A DNA stretch of 64,000 nucleotides, from positions 1-64,000 of the IMG/VR virus record IMGVR_UViG_3300020440_000009; one strand, written 5' to 3'. The translations under genes were made by a program, and so were the position numbers. Below, one piece after another: positions 5,401-58,721 of the stretch (within the stretch, counting starts at the first letter, position 1; every line of letters begins with the position of its first letter). The stretch comes from a virus. Taxonomy: Duplodnaviria > Caudoviricetes. The notes beneath the pieces were generated by a model, which worked only from the letters and a program-made list of their open reading frames with translations, had not been told where the DNA came from and searched no databases.

Positions 5401-7498
5401 ATTCTTCAGCCTCATCATATCCAGGATCTGGAATATAACCACTACTACCACTACTTTCAGGTGAACCAGGATCTGAACCAGGTGAAGATACTGATCTATA
5501 TTCAGTTGATGATGTTTCAAAACTGAATACTGTACTCTCTGTGGTACCACCGTCATTTGTTAAGTTTACTTTCCAGTAGTATCTATTATCCGAGGCCAAA
5601 CCGCTTGCTCTGAATGTGCTGGTCTCCGAAGTATCTGTTAAGTGAGTCTCATTTAAATCAGGGTTTGGACCAAAGAAAAGTTGTCTTCTTCGTATAACAC
5701 CCGGGTCTGATCTATATCCTACTGATGTAGCTGATAAAGTGGTCGCACTCCATACCACAGTATCTGGTGTTTTATTAAAATCTGTAAAAGGTCTTGATTC
5801 AAATTCAATGGGATCACCTTCTGTATTTGAAAAATTCCAAGTAAACTCACCAAAAGATTGATTTTTAACACCAACGTCATCCAAAGTCCAATAATAATTA
5901 ATTAAGGTGTCTTGTGTATGTTCTCTTGTTGAATATAAGTTATTATTGGGTACACTAATAAAGGGTTTATAAACTGTGTCTAAATTAGGTGTTCTTGTAC
6001 TTGACTGTATACCTCTTACAAAAATATTAGAACCTGATAATGTACTTGTTGATTTAAATGATAAAAGCCAATGAGCGACACCATCAATATCATAGTCTTT
6101 GAATATATGTAAATAACCAGTTGTGGGAGTTCTTTCTACTGTAAATGTTACTTCGTCATCACCACCACCGTCAGCATTTCCAACTAATGTGTTAGTAGTA
6201 GTAACTGGTATGATACCAGAACCAAAATCTAAATTTTCGGCTTGAAAGTCTGGACCTGTTCTGCCATGACCATCATGAAATAAAACCCAATTTCCAATAT
6301 CGACATCAGGTGCCCGATCTTGAGCTGGGCTTATATCACTGATTAAGTTAGGTATCGCACTAGAATATCCAACCGGATCAGATTCAAAATCAGGTCGATT
6401 TAACCAAAAATACCAAGTATCTGAATTTAACTGGAATTCAAAATATGTGTTACTATTATCATTTTTTATCCATAAACCGTTTCCTGTCGGAATATATACA
6501 CCAGCAATTCCACTATTTGTCAAAATTATAGTTTGAGTATCGTTTAATCCGGTTATTTCAAAAGAACTATCCGTTTTGTTGATGAAGTTTCCTTCCTGAA
6601 AAGGAGTGTCGGATTCGTCTCTAGCTATCCATGTAGATTGATAAGGAAATCCAAATGATAGAGACGAGTCAACTGTAGTAACACCATTACCGGATTTTTT
6701 ATTAACAAAGTTTTCAGACTGAAGTCTTATACTATCGGTTCCTACTCTCCATGTGGCTAGATAGGGAAATTTAATGGCCGAGTTTGTACTCTCGAAAGTA
6801 TCAGTGTCCAAAAAACCTGTTGTACCATCAGGTTTGGCATAGTAAAATATCCAATCACTATGTGATATACCATTGACAAAGGTGGTATCTCTCTGTAGTT
6901 CAAAATATGTATTAGGCTCATTTATTTTTGTCCATGTAGTAAAATCCGAATTAGCTCTGTATGTACCGGTAATATTAGCATTTGATAGTGCAGTATCATT
7001 AGGAATAGTATCCGGTGTGTCTATTATTTCAAAAGAGTTAGTAGCCTTAGGTACAATAAAATAATTTATAGTATCTATCGTAGCTTCATAACCACCTCTG
7101 TCTGGTTTGTGTTCTAAAGTAGAACCTAATTCGATCATCCAGTCGGGACTTTTTGCCATTTTTGTAAATGTTTGGTCACTAAAATCAGCATTATTGAAAA
7201 AATGACCTAACTTACTAACAGTAATTACATTAGGCATTTCAGTAGGTGTGAAATTGTTTATTCTATTACTTCTATAACTAGCATATGGAACACCACCTAA
7301 AATCGATTTATCAATAAATACACATGACACTTCTTGTAGACCAGCATCATCAAAACTAACTTGATATTTATTTGATACAAAAGCAGGACCATCTGCACCT
7401 CTTTCGAATTTATATCCACGAGGTCCTGTAAATACATTTTCACTAGTTCTTACATAGGCACCTGTTAATACAAATTGTGAATGTGTTCCTTCTGACAT
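2474..7498 (-). CDS. Large mosaic baseplate/fibre protein with Fn3-like and LamG-like segments and a baseplate-wedge-type C-terminus
   Basis: 1674 aa ORF. Fn3-like strand YYWKVNLTNDGGTTESTVFSFETS; LamG-like end FSRYYEWNRSLTDGE; C-terminal IIDKITPVHT resembles the PxHT end of P2 gpI/gp7-type wedge proteins. Confidence 0.65.
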   Translation of the reverse strand: MSEGTHSQFVLTGAYVRTSENVFTGPRGYKFERGADGPAFVSNKYQVSFDDAGLQEVSCVFIDKSILGGVPYASYRSNRINNFTPTEMPNVITVSKLGHFFNNADFSDQTFTKMAKSPDWMIELGSTLEHKPDRGGYEATIDTINYFIVPKATNSFEIIDTPDTIPNDTALSNANITGTYRANSDFTTWTKINEPNTYFELQRDTTFVNGISHSDWIFYYAKPDGTTGFLDTDTFESTNSAIKFPYLATWRVGTDSIRLQSENFVNKKSGNGVTTVDSSLSFGFPYQSTWIARDESDTPFQEGNFINKTDSSFEITGLNDTQTIILTNSGIAGVYIPTGNGLWIKNDNSNTYFEFQLNSDTWYFWLNRPDFESDPVGYSSAIPNLISDISPAQDRAPDVDIGNWVLFHDGHGRTGPDFQAENLDFGSGIIPVTTTNTLVGNADGGGDDEVTFTVERTPTTGYLHIFKDYDIDGVAHWLLSFKSTSTLSGSNIFVRGIQSSTRTPNLDTVYKPFISVPNNNLYSTREHTQDTLINYYWTLDDVGVKNQSFGEFTWNFSNTEGDPIEFESRPFTDFNKTPDTVVWSATTLSATSVGYRSDPGVIRRRQLFFGPNPDLNETHLTDTSETSTFRASGLASDNRYYWKVNLTNDGGTTESTVFSFETSSTEYRSVSSPGSDPGSPESSGSSGYIPDPGYDEAEELQVLYIEPISGSIGSDRFELKRLISGEKAKIFHTSKGVMIGDLEEDFTNFTATSGSPFNRFGSYSFSRKALVKNIYFSDEFIRQSNINVPITQDDDGLLNVISPDVKQLAVTQFNESAVSMTDLTNKTIKYLNYDADKNAHLLTEGGNAIAVYPPSGSIEESRSSIPSAALEPMFIVSGLDFNFIEESPVEFDFYDFNSGIMYSNTMNAKNMYDGSFNTNVVVSGENNQFATNSNFLTGDTNLVGHLSAEIHNSRYYIDVNSDGNHLLYNVYRVAKNYEPDSDIQSTGKLLKPFNSDPYFRSWNIGNTSLTGWTTEGDSQTDPNRRLSAFVEEFRLQNKAVNDNRRKRANQFDLFGAVVMSGKSIIKETGILEAGQTYTFRAELDTQQLSGNGTSFFISNGSKVISAPGITEWQYQVKATDPNATALFLSGDHDDSQCILKSLSVSKGNKSRIAVRGKGIKNGNFTSWSHTDDSADNFYSSPTNWSVVATSGLVQRDEKAIPDFNDVRPCISMAKSGFVEISNTNNTFNNLSAADKTYAMLVKFPDHLPRAKTLSGSNQARDTDDERLCLIGKPNGFTEGEDHIAIFTPGKTGINHATSDNPRVWWRGGSSAAGAGNVYDADQGFYINAREFDGQWKWLVFRKDRLNTDKKFAMTNSISGFKTESKNDTDININTFNPGVGASSITPYMQGRSSLTFSRYYEWNRSLTDGETEGIVKLNHIPSGALVGYKFENPYTEKITNTLSANARDGLLVREEDINGNKEEMDTFWSDNMKIKEPTGGVRMYNNGTGYTRISQNDAFISPSGFYDVSITTSDFASGTVSLSCGIAPIGTIREPGTKRFNFNKVGTNAPSAIIIQLTSRGVSTPASGLGDVVIENVNITCLSGNGGVGDAGNNASLYDLAERVDGFYRYQTIPIHKSNLFSVRINNSRLNRDETLGEVEKQNIKKSVTNVVRNIIDKITPVHTQLLGIEFTGE
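6698..7034. repeat. Direct repeat copy 1 of a ~340 bp coding module (copy 2 at 7760-8104)
   Basis: High nucleotide similarity to 7760-8104, including a perfect 40 nt stretch 6882-6921 = 7950-7989. Encodes DTPDTIPN...LQSENFVNK. Confidence 0.92.
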
Positions 7499-28981: not shown

Positions 28982-29866
28982 TTACAAATTGTTTATTTGA
29001 CTATTATTCTCTGATGATTCTTCGGCATTTGATGATACCTCATTAACAACATTTACAACAGTTGGATTTTCCGCATTTTCGACAGTTTTCTTTAGTGCAT
29101 CTATTTTTTCATCAATTTTTCTTATTTGAGGACTTATATTCATATCCTCTCTTAATCTTAATGCTTCATATTCAGGTATGTACATACCTGTCTGTCGAAA
29201 ACTTTCTTCACGTTTTAGCTGTTCAGGAGTCATTGCACTTTCTATTGCATTTGCTTGACCTTTTAGCTCGGCTTGATTCGCTATTAGTTTATTTCTGCCT
29301 TTCTCCAAAACTGATATTTCCTCTGTTGCAGTCATAGGAATATCAACAAATGGTATATTATTTAATGCCATTTTTAAGTCTAAAATTTGTTGAGCCGTTT
29401 TTTGTTCAAATTCTTTAACTTTGGCTGAAATAGGATCAATGATTTTCTTTTTAACTAAAATACCAAGAAATATGCCAAGTCCTATACCAACAGGTGAGGT
29501 TAAAAAGCTTTTAACTCTATCAAAAGAACTTTTTGAGCCACCTTTTAATTTTGCACCAAATGTTGTACCTAAAGATCCGAGTCCTTCTTTAACACTTTCT
29601 TGACCAGACTTAAGACCGTTTAATGTCATTTTTTGAAGCTTTCTAAACTTATCGGTTTCTTCTCTTTTCTCCTTCTCTTCTTCTTGTGCTAAATCAAAAG
29701 CTTCATCGACATCTTGAACTCTTCTGTCTATATCGTGAATAATATCCAATTCATCTAAAAAGGTATCTATTTTAGCTTCGATGGGTTGATTAGTCTCTTT
29801 TCCGGTTTCTTTACCTATCTTAATCAACTCATCTCTTTGCTCTGCTGTAAATTCAGTTCTAGACAT
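28982..29866 (-). CDS. Short tape-measure-like (gp29 position) coiled-coil protein
   Basis: Helical, charged protein with one hydrophobic stretch (GIGLGIFLGILV); sits between the gp26/gp51 chaperones and gp48. Confidence 0.45.
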   Translation of the reverse strand: MSRTEFTAEQRDELIKIGKETGKETNQPIEAKIDTFLDELDIIHDIDRRVQDVDEAFDLAQEEEKEKREETDKFRKLQKMTLNGLKSGQESVKEGLGSLGTTFGAKLKGGSKSSFDRVKSFLTSPVGIGLGIFLGILVKKKIIDPISAKVKEFEQKTAQQILDLKMALNNIPFVDIPMTATEEISVLEKGRNKLIANQAELKGQANAIESAMTPEQLKREESFRQTGMYIPEYEALRLREDMNISPQIRKIDEKIDALKKTVENAENPTVVNVVNEVSSNAEESSENNSQINNL

Positions 29867-30093
29867 TAGATTCTCATTCCGTTATTCTTCTTCATCTCTT
29901 CGAGTTTTTGCTTCTCAGCTTCGGCTCTTTCGTCAATTATATTTACAATCCTACTGACATAGAAGTTGTACTCAATTAGAGATAGATTATCAAAAACAAA
30001 AGGATTAACATTAAAGTCTACTAATAGATTAGTTTCTGACATAATTATAGAGGAATATACCGACTTAAAGAGATTTATGATTAGATAAAATTT
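29866..30093 (-). CDS. gp51: gp51-like baseplate hub assembly/tail chaperone segment, absent from the ORF track; probably expressed by -1 frameshift from gp26
   Basis: Manual translation of the -1 frame: KFYLIINLFKSVYSSIIMSETNLLVDFNVNPFVFDNLSLIEYNFYVSRIVNIIDERAEAEKQKLEEMKKNNGMRI*. The stop overlaps the next ATG (TAATG at 29866). The only early ATG (30042) has no SD. Confidence 0.7.
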   Translation of the reverse strand, partial: KFYLIINLFKSVYSSIIMSETNLLVDFNVNPFVFDNLSLIEYNFYVSRIVNIIDERAEAEKQKLEEMKKNNGMRI

Positions 30094-30875
30094 GACGCCG
30101 GAGCTTCACCTCCTATCTCGGCACCACATTTTTTGCAGTGTCCAGATAAATCCTGTGAACTGTACATTTCATCTACCAAATCAGATACATGTGTATCGGT
30201 GGATTCCTTTGTTATCTTATTTTTAAGTAAAGAAGCTGGTAGTAATTCAAAATTCTGTATAAATTGTAAAATAGAATCTTCTTCATCGTCATGTGATAAT
30301 TCTACATCATCAACTGATTTATTTGAAAATGATATTTTTATATTGTTAATAAAAAGTTTGAATAAATCTTCAGCCTTAATCTTTTCACCTTGTAGTAAGT
30401 AATAAAATCCATACATCTGTCTAACAGTTGGTATTGATATTTTACAAGTCAGTCTATCATCCGCTTCATTATTAAAAAATATTTCTTTATATTCGTACTG
30501 ATTTAAATCATTTATAACTTTATCTGAATCAAGTTTCAAAACATTCTCTTCATTACATTCAGGACAATTTATTTTAAAGTCTGAGATCATGTCATTTGTA
30601 GAAAGAAGTTCAAACATAATCTTCATTCTATCAAACTCTGACATGTTCGCCATGTTTATATCTTCATGACATAGAGACTTTATCATTGCACAAAGAGATT
30701 CATATATTTCAAAAGGCTTTTCTTCTGATGCTAACAAAGTCTTAGTAAGTGTTTTTAGCTGTGCAACCGTTAATGCTTTAAAGCCATATTCTCTACCTTT
30801 AACAGGTAGGTAAATTTTATGAACTGTTGTGTTCATACCAGAGTTTAGAGCCTCTAAGAGTGCTTCATTATTCAT
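30081..30875 (-). CDS. gp26: Baseplate hub assembly chaperone, T4 gp26-like
   Basis: KIYLPVKGREYGFKALTVAQLKTL resembles the gp26 N-terminus; Zn-ribbon CPEC and CKKC; synteny. Confidence 0.8.
   Translation of the reverse strand: MNNEALLEALNSGMNTTVHKIYLPVKGREYGFKALTVAQLKTLTKTLLASEEKPFEIYESLCAMIKSLCHEDINMANMSEFDRMKIMFELLSTNDMISDFKINCPECNEENVLKLDSDKVINDLNQYEYKEIFFNNEADDRLTCKISIPTVRQMYGFYYLLQGEKIKAEDLFKLFINNIKISFSNKSVDDVELSHDDEEDSILQFIQNFELLPASLLKNKITKESTDTHVSDLVDEMYSSQDLSGHCKKCGAEIGGEAPASNFI
30087..30114 (-). promoter_or_regulatory. Candidate -1 ribosomal frameshift signal: internal SD AGGAGGT, 14 nt spacer, slippery heptamer A_AAT_TTT
   Basis: Minus strand reads ATAGGAGGTGAAGCTCCGGCGTCAAATTTTATCTAA; the heptamer fits X_XXY_YYZ one sense codon before the gp26 stop. 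Confidence 0.65.
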
Positions 30876-30889
30876 AATTTCTCCTTAAC

Positions 30890-31750
30890 TTACAAGAAAG
30901 GTATATCATCTAGAGTCTTATTAATTCCAGTTGTTATTTTTCTTTCTAACTTATCCACAACATATTTATCAAAGGCTCTTTCTATTCTACCCTTAAGCTG
31001 TTTAGTTGAAGATTTGACATACATACAATCAAAAGCAAAGGTAACTCTTCTTGTTAAAACTTCTTCACCACCATGTGATGGTGATAAAGTTTCAATACCA
31101 ACAGGGTAAACATTCTTTAATATATATTCAAACATCCTCTTTTTATCTTCAGAGTCAAAAAATGCTATTCTCAAAATACACTTTGTAAAAGGTCTATCAT
31201 CATACTGCCATTCATTTGCTGTTGTTTCTCTTAACCAATAATAAAAGACATGCTCATGTAGTGAAAATTCTGTTGATAAAAAGTCCACTGTAAAAGTATT
31301 TGCAGTTGGCTGTATATAAATTCCTGTATTTGACACATTTCCATAGTAAGTAGATTCGGTATCTGGCGTTAAGTAACCTTCAAAATCAGGTAAATCAATA
31401 CCTTGTATAAAATACTTTAATGCTTCGGCTGTTCTTTCTTTAGTTGACTTTACGAACAACTGCTCAACTCTTGATTGAAAAGGCTTAAAAGACCAAATAC
31501 AGTTAAAGTAATAAGGTTTTTGAATTACAGTTGCTAATATCTTTTCTTGTAAGGGACTGTCTGTTCCAAATCTATTAAAGAATTGAATTATATTATCATT
31601 AACACTCGTTATGCCTAAATAAGAAGCAAGTGGATTATCTTTTATTGGTAATCTATCAATAAGATTGTCCAAAGGTGCGACTGAGTTGATCGCATCATCA
31701 ACAAAGTTATTAAATCTATCACTTAAATTTGGTTTATTAGGTTCCGCCAT
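30890..31750 (-). CDS. Tail-tube-fold baseplate protein (gp54-like tube initiator)
   Basis: FIQGIDLP...FTVDFL...VFYYWL...YILKNVYPVGIE.L......VLTRRVTFAFD is the gp19/gp54 fold pattern. Confidence 0.7.
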   Translation of the reverse strand: MAEPNKPNLSDRFNNFVDDAINSVAPLDNLIDRLPIKDNPLASYLGITSVNDNIIQFFNRFGTDSPLQEKILATVIQKPYYFNCIWSFKPFQSRVEQLFVKSTKERTAEALKYFIQGIDLPDFEGYLTPDTESTYYGNVSNTGIYIQPTANTFTVDFLSTEFSLHEHVFYYWLRETTANEWQYDDRPFTKCILRIAFFDSEDKKRMFEYILKNVYPVGIETLSPSHGGEEVLTRRVTFAFDCMYVKSSTKQLKGRIERAFDKYVVDKLERKITTGINKTLDDIPFL

Positions 31751-56726: not shown

Positions 56727-57173
56727 CTATTTTTGACTATCTCCAGGTAAAACTCTGTAGTTATCTTCTACGGAATCAGGTGTGGAAACCTCAATTATTT
56801 CTGAATTATCTTCAAGAGCAATAAGCTGATGTGGTTCTAATGGCTCGTTTCTCCAAGTCTCACCTTCTTGTAGAATAACAGACCTCTGTTCAGCATTCTT
56901 GGTGTTGATATAAATTAGTTCAAAAGAGCCTTTGTTTACATACCAAGACTCGTCTTTTTCTCGGTGAAAATGCATTGAGAACTTCGACATAGCTTTGTTA
57001 AAATGCATAATTTTACCACAATACTTATCATTTGTAGCAAATATCAATTCATATCCCCAAGCCTTATCTACCTTACCTTCTAGTCTCTCTGTGAAAGAGC
57101 CGTCAGTGTAATAGTCTTTACTACCATAACTGGTGGTATGCGTTCTCTTATCCACAACAAAATATTCACTCAT
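56727..57173 (-). CDS. Cupin (sugar-phosphate isomerase-like) protein
   Basis: KAWGYE, YCGKIM, SMHFHREKDESWYV, PHQL, EVSTPD. Confidence 0.78.
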   Translation of the reverse strand: MSEYFVVDKRTHTTSYGSKDYYTDGSFTERLEGKVDKAWGYELIFATNDKYCGKIMHFNKAMSKFSMHFHREKDESWYVNKGSFELIYINTKNAEQRSVILQEGETWRNEPLEPHQLIALEDNSEIIEVSTPDSVEDNYRVLPGDSQK

Positions 57174-57981
57174 TTTCTATATACTCCCTTATATCAATCC
57201 AGTCTAACTTAAAGTATTTCTCTAATTGTCCTAGATTAGCTTGTGTAAATTCTTGATACTGTCCTTTTAATTTATCAGGAAAAGGTATCTCAACTATTGG
57301 TACATTATACTTATTTGACAGGGCTTTTGCGATGTCCAAGAAACTAATTGCCTTACCTGTTCCTACATTGAAAACACCATTTTCTTCTATATCAAACATT
57401 CTTAAATGACATTCACACACATCATCTACACAAACAAAATCTCTCTTATAATTTTCACTACCTTCAAATATTCTTATCTCACCATCTTCTAATGCTTGTT
57501 TCTTAAACTTGTGATAAGGACTTGCTTGATCACCTTTATGATCTTCATGTTGTCCATAAACATTAAAGTATCTGAAGCCTTGAACTGTTATAGGATGAGT
57601 AACTTTCTCATACCACAACCATCTATCAAATAGATATTTTGACCAAGCATATGGACTTTCTGGTCTGAGAGGACCATCTTCTGTAAAATGTTCTGTCTGT
57701 CCGTAAACACTCGCACTACTAGAATACTGGAAGTGTACACCATGTTTACAACACTCTTCGTATAGCCATCTAGAAAACTCAAGATTGACATTGATTATCT
57801 TGTCAACATCTCTCTCCGTTGTAGAAGATATTGCACCGAAATGAATTACTTTGTCCATTCCTCTAACATCAGGTAAGTCTGTCGTGTTTAGTTCATAACC
57901 ATATAGTTCATGGTCTTTAGTCAGACGATTAACCATATTCTGACCAATGAAACCTTTGTTACCTGTTATTAATATCTTCAT
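57166..57981 (-). CDS. hldD: ADP-L-glycero-D-manno-heptose 6-epimerase
   Basis: ITGNKGFIG, HFGAISSTTE, YSSSASVYG, PESPYAWSK, FRYFNVYG..EDHKG, RDFVCVDD, YQEFTQA. Confidence 0.88.
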   Translation of the reverse strand: MKILITGNKGFIGQNMVNRLTKDHELYGYELNTTDLPDVRGMDKVIHFGAISSTTERDVDKIINVNLEFSRWLYEECCKHGVHFQYSSSASVYGQTEHFTEDGPLRPESPYAWSKYLFDRWLWYEKVTHPITVQGFRYFNVYGQHEDHKGDQASPYHKFKKQALEDGEIRIFEGSENYKRDFVCVDDVCECHLRMFDIEENGVFNVGTGKAISFLDIAKALSNKYNVPIVEIPFPDKLKGQYQEFTQANLGQLEKYFKLDWIDIREYIENE

Positions 57982-58721
57982 TTCTTTAAATCACCTTTCT
58001 TTATCCAAGCTGTTAAGCCTGACCAAGTCTCGTAATTATTCGATGGTAAAATATACAATATTTCGGGTATCACTTTTTTTATATTCTTTAAAACTTTAAA
58101 AACATCATGTTTCTTTTCATTAACATCGTGAAAAAATACATATCCATCTTTTTTACAATGATTATATGCATACATTATATCCCAAGCGACAGCAGGGTAA
58201 TCATGACCACCATCAACAAATATAAAATCAAACTTCTTATTCTTAAGTATTTCTGGTAAGAAGAAAGAGTTTTTGTTTATATATTTTACGTTAGATTGAT
58301 TTATATTTTTATTAAAAAATTGCTTATCATTTTTTCTAATAGCTAACTCTTGATAACTCTCATCATCTTCTGAAAGATCACAGGTGATTATATTTGCATC
58401 AGGCCATAATTTAGAAAATAAATTAGTCATCTCACCTTTACCTGTACCTATTTCTAAAATGTCTTTTATATCAGGTCTGTGAATCGATAGAGATGTAAAA
58501 TATATAAAATCTTTTCCTTGTCCTTTAAAATCTTTAGTCACAAAGTAAATGTTTTCAGGTCCAACTATAGACATTAACTTATCTTCAGCTTTTTTTACAT
58601 CAGTTAATTCCCAATCACAATAATTAATTCCTCTATAATCTTCGAACTTTATATTAGCTACCGAACTTCTATTGAAAAAGTACTCATAAGCATCAGGACC
58701 ACACTCTACAACATCTTTCAT
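57978..58721 (-). CDS. Class I SAM-dependent methyltransferase
   Basis: ILEIGTGKG, FDFIFVDGGHDY, FFHD. Confidence 0.82.
   Translation of the reverse strand: MKDVVECGPDAYEYFFNRSSVANIKFEDYRGINYCDWELTDVKKAEDKLMSIVGPENIYFVTKDFKGQGKDFIYFTSLSIHRPDIKDILEIGTGKGEMTNLFSKLWPDANIITCDLSEDDESYQELAIRKNDKQFFNKNINQSNVKYINKNSFFLPEILKNKKFDFIFVDGGHDYPAVAWDIMYAYNHCKKDGYVFFHDVNEKKHDVFKVLKNIKKVIPEILYILPSNNYETWSGLTAWIKKGDLKK

What the first reader, a model, noticed from the sequence alone, without database searches (positions are those of the whole stretch)
29866..30114. Candidate programmed -1 frameshift fusing gp26 to a hidden gp51: a lambda G/GT-style switch in a T4-like phage
Seen: gp26 ends ...TCA AAT TTT ATC TAA, containing the heptamer A_AAT_TTT (30093-30087, X_XXY_YYZ). 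The -1 frame opens only four codons before the heptamer (after a TGA). It then runs 75 codons to a stop overlapping the ATG of the tape-measure-like gene, encoding a gp51-like peptide (…NLFKSVYSSIIMSETNLLV…SLIEYNFYVSRIVNIIDERAE…). Its first ATG (30042) lacks an SD and would cut off the gp51-like N-terminal part. A perfect SD (AGGAGGT, 30114-30108) sits 14 nt upstream of the heptamer with no start codon to serve. Established: tail assembly chaperone pairs upstream of tape-measure genes (lambda G/GT, P2 E/E') are made by -1 frameshifting, and upstream internal SDs stimulate -1 shifts in dnaX and IS911; T4 itself encodes 26 and 51 as separate genes. Inference: this phage makes gp26 and a gp26-gp51 fusion at a set ratio, linking T4-type hub chaperones to the G/GT paradigm.
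Basis: partly seen in the sequence, partly recalled or inferred. Interest (0 to 1): 0.85.

Follow-up and report, generated by a model that had tools for sequence, protein, structure and literature searches.

The report
Frameshift in T4-like hub chaperone gene
One tail-baseplate assembly gene of this uncultured marine T4-like phage very probably makes a 264-residue protein and a 336-residue version because some ribosomes slip back one base on AAATTTT; phage T4 makes such a pair from two genes (26 and 51), and this lineage uses a different slippery sequence at the same spot as its relatives.

Summary
A PF12322 (gp26/gp51-type) gene on the minus strand ends with an in-frame A_AAT_TTT. AGGAGGT(G) lies 14 nt upstream. 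The -1 frame is open from there into a 58-codon ORF that ends on the ATG of the next gene.

Evidence that the 'intergenic' linker (30081-30043) is translated:
- A profile built only from nine distant homologues of the small protein matches it from profile position 2. The linker adds 15 bits in the window and 11 bits in a 59%-identical relative (0 of 500 shuffles reach either).
- Neither genome has ATG, GTG or TTG upstream of that segment.
- The heptamer, the SD-like box and the -1 relation are all kept in the relative.

Four isolates (P-SSM2, Syn9, HTVC008M, KVP40) each have a single PF12322 gene. In each, an in-frame T_TTT_TTC/T sits just before the stop, and the 'gp51' ORF lies in the -1 frame. 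T4 gp26 and gp51 both carry PF12322.

Best reading (0.75): a programmed -1 ribosomal frameshift of the lambda G/GT kind.

This scan has already noted the TTTTTTC form on many other genomes, and I found no publication of it. New here are a non-homopolymeric heptamer, a very strong SD-like box and a diverged C-terminal module. Homology of that module to gp51's C-terminus is only weakly indicated. No experiment exists.

The parts
30081..30875 (-). Zero-frame gene: PF12322 (T4_baseplate; gp26/gp51-type hub assembly chaperone), 264 aa. It has a split zinc ribbon (CxxC at 104-107 and 247-250). This is the short product.
   Evidence: Pfam PF12322 E 3e-8, 34.1 bits against a cut-off of 24.5. phrog_150 'baseplate hub' E 2e-8. 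It is the only PF12322 match in the 88.5-kb record. Conserved Cys residues are shown.
30108..30114 (-). SD-like box AGGAGGT (AGGAGGTG with 30107), 14 nt upstream of the heptamer. It encodes Ile-Gly-Gly and is a candidate 5' stimulator of the shift.
   Evidence: Sequence. Pairing to the anti-SD is -14.5 kcal/mol, in the top 0.05% of sampled 18-mers of the window. It is identical in L002. Its function is inferred by analogy with dnaX.
30087..30093 (-). Slippery heptamer A_AAT_TTT (Asn262 in the P site, Phe263 in the A site), followed by one codon (ATC) and TAA.
   Evidence: It is identical in L002. Phe263 is an invariant alignment column shared with the ...SFF end of gp26 in P-SSM2, Syn9, HTVC008M and KVP40, and with T4 gp26 ...EFFELL. 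A_AA.U_UU.U falls in the H_HH.U_UU.Y class of efficient E. coli motifs (PMC4066793).
30043..30086 (-). Linker read in the -1 frame (YLIINLFKSVYSSII). It has no ATG/GTG/TTG and encodes most of helix 1 of the downstream module.
   Evidence: A profile built from remote homologues only aligns from position 2. The linker adds +15.0 bits, and 0 of 500 open shuffles reach this. The AF2 model has helix 2-26 with pLDDT about 81. L002 has the same length, no indels, and most substitutions at codon positions 1 and 3.
29866..30042 (-). The 58-codon ORF as gene callers see it (ATG 30042 to TAA 29868-29866). It is the C-terminal part of the -1 module. Its stop overlaps the next ATG.
   Evidence: Homologues P0002-P0006 are 84-90% identical. 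Remote homologues are P0010-P0018.
28982..29866 (-). Next gene, 294 aa, coiled-coil with a hydrophobic segment. It sits where relatives have a long tape-measure-like gene. Its identity is not established.
   Evidence: No Pfam or PHROG match. For synteny, HTVC008M has 'putative tail tape measure' two genes downstream of gp51.
30890..31750 (-). Upstream gene, 286 aa, weakly tail-tube-like (the gp48/gp54 position).
   Evidence: phrog_45 'tail tube' E 0.0024. In HTVC008M a 'baseplate tail tube initiator' and in KVP40 a gp19-like gene occupy this position.

Best explanation
The PF12322 gene is decoded in two ways. Most ribosomes read to TAA 30083-30081 and make a 264-aa gp26-type hub chaperone. A fraction slip back one base when AAU (Asn262) is in the P site and UUU (Phe263) is in the A site. 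They then read UAU CUA AUC... in the -1 frame to TAA 29868-29866.

The long product is about 336 aa: residues 1-263 joined to a 73-residue helical hairpin, with junction ...APASNF-YLIINLFKS.... It has the architecture of T4 gp51 (PF12322 domain plus a short C-terminal module), and the short product has that of T4 gp26. One recoded gene would therefore supply what T4 supplies from two paralogous genes, as lambda G/GT does for its tail chaperones.

The AGGAGGTG box 14 nt upstream probably pairs with 16S rRNA and raises the shift rate, as in dnaX.

Shown: the sequence anatomy, its conservation, the coding nature of the start-less linker, and the family-wide -1 relation. Inferred: the slip itself, its rate, the role of the SD-like box, and the chaperone function.
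For: 1. The anatomy is exact.

2. L002, whose gp26 is 59% identical, keeps several features:
- 31 identical nucleotides, ATAGGAGGTGAAGCTCCGGCGTCAAATTTTA;
- all ten final shared codons identical, against 60% for identical residues elsewhere in the gene, including the rare codons CCG (8% of Pro) and GCG (9% of Ala);
- the same TGA opening the -1 frame, an open linker of equal length, and the same -1 relation.
Its only in-frame 'start' is GTG, with no SD.

3. A search of 1.84 billion representatives found 9 remote homologues of the small protein whose N-termini align to the linker. An HMM built from those nine alone matches the window and L002 from HMM position 2 (E 2e-20). The linker contributes +15.0 and +11.3 bits, and 0 of 500 open shuffles reach either.

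4. AF2 places the linker residues in helix 1 of a two-helix hairpin. A product started at ATG 30042 would therefore lose most of that helix.

5. P-SSM2, Syn9, HTVC008M and KVP40 each have one PF12322 gene. Each has an in-frame T_TTT_TTC or T_TTT_TTT 7-10 nt before its stop, and the 'gp51' ORF in the -1 frame despite gaps of 2, 47, 50 and -1 nt. In Syn9 and HTVC008M, conserved gp51 residues lie upstream of the annotated start.

6. The window's heptamer has the same geometry (heptamer, one codon, stop), and Phe263 aligns with the last Phe of ...SFF.

7. T4 gp26 and gp51 both match PF12322 over their first ~200 residues, and gp51 has an extra ~48 residues.

8. A_AA.U_UU.U belongs to the efficient H_HH.U_UU.Y class in E. 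coli (PMC4066793).

9. A3T4 is not a homopolymer run, which argues against polymerase slippage (from my knowledge of slippage requirements).
Against: - There is no protein, reporter or ribosome-profiling evidence, and the host is unknown.
- There is no conserved or significant RNA structure 3' of the heptamer (z +0.85 in the window; a 5-bp hairpin only in L002).
- DNA is available for only one relative of this lineage, so heptamer conservation rests on two genomes plus the invariant Ser-Asn-Phe in three further proteins.
- The IGGEAPASNF stretch is also conserved as protein, next to a zinc knuckle, so part of the nucleotide identity may be protein constraint.
- An in-frame ATG (GTG in L002, ATG-ATG in five close relatives) is kept at the same position, so an independently started short form may also exist.
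- At least five of the nine remote homologues start with their own Met at or next to profile position 1, so the module can be a free-standing protein in other lineages.
- SD-less genes are common in this phage.
Confidence: 0.75

Rival explanations
1. The full-length small protein is made on its own. Ribosomes start, or restart after terminating gp26, at a non-canonical codon next to the gp26 stop. The candidate is the ATC kept in both genomes (30081-30079, which shares its A with the TAA). The AGGAGGTG box might be brought closer by the small hairpin UGAAGC-UCCG-GCGUCA, in the manner of the split ribosome-binding site described for T4 gene 25.
For: ATC is a rare Ile codon (10%). It is kept in the window and in L002 at HMM position 2, directly beside the place where remote homologues have their Met. 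It touches the gp26 stop in both genomes. The 16 nt between the SD box and the heptamer are identical in both genomes, include rare codons, and can form a weak hairpin. Precedents recalled from memory and not checked here: T4 gene 26* starts at AUU, the T4 26-25 junction has a split RBS, and IS911 has a dual-use SD.
Against: AUC is a very poor initiator (from my knowledge). The SD box is 26 nt from it, and the hairpin is weak and untestable by covariation because the two sequences are identical. This reading does not explain why an exact X_XXY_YYZ heptamer sits in register at the position where four other lineages have T_TTT_TTC. Nor does it explain why the -1 relation is kept across gaps of -1 to 50 nt.
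Confidence: 0.1
2. There is no recoding. The downstream gene is translated only from ATG 30042 (GTG in L002) as a 58-aa protein. The open, protein-like linker is a relic of a longer ancestral gene, and the heptamer and SD-like box are by-products of the conserved IGGEAPASNF peptide.
For: A start-type codon is kept at this position in all seven sequences of the lineage. Gene callers annotate 56-59 aa proteins. About 30% of genes here lack an SD. One remote homologue (P0015) also begins near this position. Internal AGGAGGT is not rare on this strand.
Against: After divergence to 59% gp26 identity, both lineages keep the linker open, free of indels, and matching an independent family profile (+15 and +11 bits, 0/500 shuffles; only 28% of shuffles are even open). 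A relic would decay. Truncation removes most of helix 1. GTG without an SD in L002 would be a very weak start. The identical synonymous sites, including rare codons, are not explained by protein constraint.
Confidence: 0.1
3. The two-frame appearance is an assembly or sequencing error in a single long gp51-like ORF, or the long form arises by RNA-polymerase slippage rather than ribosomal slippage.
For: Relatives carry runs of six to eight T (eight in HTVC008M), which could support polymerase slippage.
Against: The same frame structure is seen in the window, in L002, in an identical contig from another study, in the gp26 homologues that all end at the same place and in four finished isolate genomes. 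In this lineage the run is only A3T4, too short for known transcriptional slippage (from my knowledge).
Confidence: 0.03

Closest known systems
Lambda gpG/gpGT (and P2 E/E+E'): -1 frameshift in tail assembly chaperone genes
   Same: Two overlapping frames. The downstream frame has no usable start of its own. An X_XXY_YYZ heptamer sits a few codons before the zero-frame stop. The site lies between a tube-like gene and the gene in the tape-measure position. The outcome would be a short and a long form of an assembly factor. According to Atkins et al. 2016, this frameshift is conserved in long-tailed phages 'except T4' (PMC5009743).
   Different: There is no detectable sequence relation between PF12322 and lambda G. 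The fold could not be tested (model pLDDT 37). The heptamer is A_AAU_UUU, not G_GGA_AAG. A strong SD-like box lies upstream. The proteins concerned are baseplate-hub chaperones of a contractile T4-type tail.
Phage T4 gp26 (208 aa) and gp51 (249 aa), hub assembly chaperones (Leiman et al. 2010, PMC3004832)
   Same: The window gene carries the same PF12322 domain. T4 gp51 is that domain plus a ~48-residue C-terminal module, which is the architecture predicted for the long product. T4 gp26 ends ...RGLKEFFELL, the same motif as the shift region of the relatives.
   Different: T4 encodes the two forms as separate, divergently transcribed genes, and RB16 as adjacent genes 51-26. The window's C-terminal module is not demonstrably homologous to gp51's.
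gp26 -> 'gp51' arrangement of marine and other T4-like phages (P-SSM2, Syn9, HTVC008M, KVP40). This scan has noted it many times on other genomes as a TTTTTTC -1 frameshift. I found no publication of it.
   Same: A single PF12322 gene. The small ORF is in the -1 frame. The heptamer is in register and one codon before the stop (P-SSM2, Syn9, KVP40). An SD-like GGAGG or GAGG box lies 9-14 nt upstream in some. The next gene is long and tape-measure-like.
   Different: The heptamer is A_AAT_TTT (Asn-Phe) instead of T_TTT_TTC (Phe-Phe). The SD-like box is far stronger (-14.5 against -3.8 to -9.8 kcal/mol). The -1 module belongs to a separate, very diverged sequence family of about 66-97 aa, found only in metagenomes.
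E. coli dnaX and IS911: -1 frameshifts stimulated by an upstream SD-like sequence
   Same: An SD-like element lies upstream of the heptamer at a spacing of 14 nt. From memory, that is the upper end of the 10-14 nt stimulatory range.
   Different: dnaX and IS911 also use a 3' stem-loop or three-way junction. None is conserved here. The stimulatory role is untested.

Membership tests
Tail assembly chaperone -1 frameshift (lambda G/GT type) | The downstream ORF is in the -1 frame, overlaps the 3' end of the upstream ORF, and lacks its own functional start for the conserved part | tested here: met
   The -1 frame opens at 30105. There is no ATG/GTG/TTG before 30042, and the conserved helix 1 is encoded upstream of it.
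Tail assembly chaperone -1 frameshift (lambda G/GT type) | A conserved X_XXY_YYZ slippery heptamer in the overlap, in register with the zero frame | tested here: met
   A_AAT_TTT at 30093-30087. It is identical in L002, and four isolates have T_TTT_TTY at a position equivalent in the alignment.
Tail assembly chaperone -1 frameshift (lambda G/GT type) | Position between the tail tube gene and the tape measure gene | tested here: inconclusive
   The upstream gene is weakly tube-like (phrog_45, E 0.0024). The downstream 294-aa gene has no family match. Synteny with HTVC008M and KVP40 is suggestive.
Tail assembly chaperone -1 frameshift (lambda G/GT type) | Both products are made, and the long one is a minor fraction | not testable with these tools
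   This needs a reporter assay, western blot, mass spectrometry or ribosome profiling.
Tail assembly chaperone -1 frameshift (lambda G/GT type) | The G-like chaperone fold, or binding to the tape measure protein | tested here: inconclusive
   The AF2 model of the 264-aa protein is unusable (pLDDT 37). No relative has a solved structure.
T4 gp26/gp51 hub assembly chaperones (Pfam PF12322 T4_baseplate) | PF12322 domain above the curated cut-off | tested here: met
   34.1 bits against 24.5, E 3e-8. T4 gp26 and gp51 both match.
T4 gp26/gp51 hub assembly chaperones (Pfam PF12322 T4_baseplate) | The long form carries the gp51 C-terminal module (Gp51_C, PF28602 in Pfam 38.1) | tested here: inconclusive
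   PF28602 is not in the local library. BLASTP against T4 gp51 finds nothing. hhalign against 13 gp51 C-termini is colinear but weak (P 0.004-0.016, probability 3-8%). One ESM Atlas cluster with 28% Gp51_C members appears at rank 10.
TTTTTTC-type gp26->gp51 frameshift of T4-like phages (seen in isolates here and in earlier notes of this scan) | A single PF12322 gene followed by a small ORF in the -1 frame | tested here: met
   There is one PF12322 match in the 88.5-kb record. The frame offset is 2 in the window, L002 and all four isolates.
TTTTTTC-type gp26->gp51 frameshift of T4-like phages (seen in isolates here and in earlier notes of this scan) | Slippery run T_TTT_TTC/T encoding Phe-Phe | tested here: not met
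   Here the site is A_AAT_TTT encoding Asn-Phe. The position and geometry are the same but the sequence differs.
SD-stimulated -1 frameshift (dnaX/IS911 type) | An SD-like sequence about 10-14 nt 5' of the heptamer | tested here: met
   AGGAGGT(G) with a 14-nt spacer, -14.5 kcal/mol, conserved in L002. Its function was not tested.
SD-stimulated -1 frameshift (dnaX/IS911 type) | A 3' stimulatory stem-loop | tested here: not met
   There is no significant or conserved structure downstream.

The most novel reading that the evidence does not exclude
T4-type phages are not an exception to the tail-chaperone frameshift rule. The ancestral state is one recoded PF12322 gene that yields gp26-like and gp51-like forms, and T4's two genes are a later duplication. 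This lineage shows that the requirement is for slipperiness, not for a Phe-Phe peptide or a T-run: it has replaced TTTTTTC by A_AAU_UUU at the same codon positions, added an 8-nt anti-SD match, and carries a highly diverged or replaced C-terminal module. This points to ribosomal rather than transcriptional slippage for the whole family.
Probability: 0.55. Interest if true: 0.8.

Novelty: new variant of a known kind. Interest (0 to 1): 0.66.

Why it matters
The G/GT-type frameshift is described as conserved in long-tailed phages 'except T4' (PMC5009743). A recoded gp26/gp51 gene in T4-like phages would close that gap. It would also explain why T4 needs two paralogous hub 'chaperones', one of them 'catalytic'.

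This window adds an independent line of evidence to the TTTTTTC cases that the scan has already collected. A different heptamer sits at the homologous position, which amounts to covariation for slipperiness. The heptamer is not a homopolymer. The conserved protein segment demonstrably has no start codon.

There is a practical consequence for annotation. Gene callers truncate or mis-start 'gp51' in public records (Syn9, HTVC008M) and miss the long product.

Tried and rejected
**Searches for related DNA**
DNA of P0002-P0018 could therefore not be fetched, and heptamer conservation could be checked in one relative only.
- No relatives appeared in the phages collection by blastn or tblastn.
- None appeared in genome contigs.
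- Metagenome contigs gave one locus, L002.
- Laying contigs of four runs gave no informative variation over 30043-30120. Only an identical contig covered it.

**Structure and binding**
- RNA folding found no conserved 3' structure.
- The AF2 model of the 264-aa protein was unusable (pLDDT 37), so no fold search was made on it.
- A Foldseek search of the 75-aa model against viral structures gave nothing.
- There are no PDB relatives of T4 gp51 or of the gp26 profile.
- Complex prediction of the 75-aa module with the 294-aa downstream protein gave no verdict. It carries no weight either way.

**Family and homology tests**
- PHROGs and Pfam give nothing for the -1 module, nor for any of its 11 relatives.
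- Profile comparison with T4 or T-even gp51 alone is not significant.

**Ideas rejected**
- A promoter-leaderless start. TATAAT lies 1 nt before ATG 30042, but it is not conserved in L002 and the spacing is wrong.
- A T4-type late promoter in the linker. It is not conserved.

**Literature**
- Searches found no report of a gp26-gp51 frameshift.
Full report
**1. What is there**

The window is part of an 88.5-kb IMG/VR record, estimated 44% complete. It comes from a marine phage; 20 marine or seawater runs from 8 studies hold the stretch. It has 34% G+C.

The minus strand carries a T4-type baseplate module:
- a weakly tube-like 286-aa gene, 31750..30890;
- a 264-aa gene, 30875..30081;
- a 58-codon ORF, 30042..29866;
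- a 294-aa gene, 29866..28982;
- a 618-aa gene;
- a gp53/LysM-like gene;
- further on, gp25- and gp6-like genes.

The 264-aa protein matches Pfam PF12322 (T4_baseplate) above its cut-off, and also phrog_150 'baseplate hub'. It has two conserved CxxC pairs, that is, a split zinc ribbon.

**2. The observation**

- the gene ends GCG TCA AAT TTT ATC TAA;
- A_AAT_TTT (30093-30087) is in X_XXY_YYZ register;
- AGGAGGT (30114-30108) lies 14 nt upstream;
- the -1 frame is closed by TGA 30108-30106 and is then open for 79 codons, to a TAA whose last base starts the next gene's ATG;
- the only canonical start in that frame is ATG 30042, which has no SD.

On chance:
- In-frame heptamers occur at 0.6% of codons.
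- Only 2 of 126 are followed by a -1 ORF of 50 codons or more.
- An anti-SD match as strong as AGGAGGTG (-14.5 kcal/mol) is found at 0.05% of sampled positions.

About 30% of genes here lack an SD, and internal AGGAGGT occurs nine times on this strand.

**3. Close relatives**

Protein searches found five small-ORF homologues (84-90% identical, all called from 'MMSETN') and three gp26 homologues (90, 69 and 59% identical). All the gp26 homologues are 264 aa and end ...IGG.A.ASNF.

L002 shows the following.
- It has the identical 31-mer ATAGGAGGTGAAGCTCCGGCGTCAAATTTTA.
- All ten final shared codons are the same, although only 60% of codons for identical residues are the same elsewhere in the gene. 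This includes CCG and GCG, which are rare here at 8-9% of their families.
- The -1 frame opens at the same TGA.
- The linker has the same length and no indels, and reads KFYFIVGLFKSIYTEIVV against KFYLIINLFKSVYSSIIM. Mismatches are distributed 8/2/7 over codon positions 1/2/3 (my count).
- Its only 'start' is GTG, without an SD.

**4. The linker is coding**

A profile of the -1 product, searched against 1.84 billion representative proteins, found nine remote homologues of 56-97 aa (E from 1e-8 to 8e-4). Their N-termini align with the linker, for example MLVDIFKSIYQSIIDIET against YLIINLFKSVYSSIIMSET.

For an independent test I built an HMM from those nine alone.
- It matches the stop-to-stop -1 ORFs of the window and of L002 from HMM position 2 (E about 2e-20).
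- The linker contributes +15.0 and +11.3 bits.
- None of 500 open shuffles of the linker reaches either value, and only 28% of shuffles are open at all.

AF2, run with the 12-sequence alignment (mean pLDDT 77), gives a two-helix hairpin. Helix 1 (residues 2-26) is mostly linker-encoded.

So both lineages keep a conserved protein segment for which there is no ATG, GTG or TTG. It must be reached by recoding or by non-canonical initiation.

**5. The wider family**

T4 gp26 (residues 1-206) and T4 gp51 (residues 1-201) both match PF12322 strongly, and gp51 has about 48 extra C-terminal residues. In T4 the two genes are divergent. In RB16 they are adjacent.

P-SSM2, Syn9, HTVC008M and KVP40 each have a single PF12322 gene. 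It is followed by a 45-57-codon ORF, annotated as gp51 in the first three.

One search shows that in all four:
- the small ORF is in the -1 frame, although the gaps are 2, 47, 50 and -1 nt;
- gp26 ends ...LEGLxSFF(V/G) with an in-frame T_TTT_TTC or T_TTT_TTT 7-10 nt before the stop;
- the -1 frame is open across that run;
- the -1 products (FFRISMAHEDLESYYKINFALM...) resemble the T4 gp51 C-terminus.

In Syn9 and HTVC008M, conserved residues lie upstream of the annotated start.

The window has exactly the same geometry: heptamer, one codon, stop. Phe263 is an invariant alignment column shared with the last Phe of ...SFF and with T4 gp26 ...EFFELL. The own record holds only one PF12322 gene.

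This scan has already noted the TTTTTTC form many times on other DNA: 238 notes in at least 208 genomes, whose follow-ups found no publication. My own literature searches found none either. Atkins et al. 2016 state that G-T frameshifting is conserved in long-tailed phages 'except T4'. Leiman et al. 2010 list gp26 and gp51 as hub assembly chaperones.

**6. Mechanism**

The best reading is a tandem -1 slip on A_AAU_UUU, with tRNA-Asn moving from AAU to AAA and tRNA-Phe from UUU to UUU.
- The short product is 264 aa.
- The long product is about 336 aa, with junction ...ASNF-YLIINLFK.

A_AA.U_UU.U belongs to the H_HH.U_UU.Y class of efficient motifs in E. coli (PMC4066793). The 8-nt anti-SD match 14 nt upstream is the likely stimulator. 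It is much stronger than in the isolates, whose values are -9.8, -6.3, -5.8 and -3.8 kcal/mol. It may compensate for a heptamer different from the family's usual one, but that is speculation. No 3' structure is conserved. Because A3T4 is not a homopolymer, polymerase slippage is unlikely here.

**7. Limits and rivals**

There is no experimental evidence, and DNA from only two genomes of this lineage.

- A start-type codon (ATG, ATG-ATG or GTG) is kept at 30042, and at least five remote homologues have their own Met at the family N-terminus. A free-standing form is therefore possible, here or elsewhere.
- A conserved rare ATC abuts the gp26 stop at the family's position 2. Together with the identical 16-nt spacer, which can form a weak hairpin, this allows a restart or split-RBS reading. 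I rate it at about 0.1.
- A pure 'relic' reading is rated at about 0.1. It fails to explain the profile match and the conservation of synonymous sites.

Homology of the -1 module to gp51's C-terminus is not established:
- BLASTP finds nothing;
- hhalign is colinear, with P 0.004-0.016 but low probability;
- there is one Atlas lead.

The fold of the 264-aa protein and any binding partner remain unknown.

**8. Verdict**

This is a new variant of a known kind of recoding (the tail-chaperone -1 frameshift), in a phage group where it is apparently unpublished but has been seen repeatedly in this scan. The window's specific value is its different, non-homopolymeric heptamer at the homologous site, together with a demonstrably start-less conserved segment.

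Noticed in passing
window 57978-58721 (minus strand) and the next gene 57166-57981: This is the only other in-frame heptamer in the window followed by a long -1 ORF. T_TTA_AAG lies 2-3 codons before an ATGA overlap with the next gene (274 codons open). It may simply be a by-product of the 4-nt overlap.
   Followed up: no
L022 (Syn9, DQ149023: gp51 7248-7391) and L023 (HTVC008M, KC465899: 16503..16366): The annotated starts of 'gp51' (TTG in Syn9, ATG in HTVC008M) cut off conserved residues (..NLETYYESNFA.., ..DLETYYDLIF..) that are open in the same frame back to the T-run in gp26. The public annotations probably miss a fusion product.
   Followed up: partly
window 30094-30107 (minus strand); L002 3766-3779: The spacer GAAGCTCCGGCGTC between the SD-like box and the heptamer is identical in both genomes, although it uses the rare codons CCG and GCG. 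It can form a weak hairpin, UGAAGC-UCCG-GCGUCA. I have no explanation for this conservation.
   Followed up: partly
window 30084-30875 (minus strand), residues 104-107 and 247-250: The gp26-like protein has two conserved CxxC pairs about 140 residues apart, a split zinc ribbon. KVP40 gp26 and T4 gp26 (CPKCG, CPECG) have the second knuckle about 13 residues before the shift-site motif.
   Followed up: partly
protein P0018 (97 aa, JGI metagenome contig of 4.4 kb): This remote homologue of the small protein has no Met at the family N-terminus. Instead it has a 19-residue extension ending ..RRFFFIII, which may be another overlap with a T-rich slippery run. Its DNA could not be fetched.
   Followed up: no
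L003 (T4, AF158101 115802-116428): T4 gp26 ends ...VIRGLKEFFELL. This is the same Gly-Leu-x-x-Phe-Phe motif that carries the slippery run in the single-gene phages, and may be a relic of the ancestral shift site.
   Followed up: no
window 30044-30049 (minus strand): A perfect TATAAT lies 1 nt before ATG 30042. It is absent from L002, and the spacing does not fit the promoter-N5-ATG pattern noted elsewhere in this window.
   Followed up: partly
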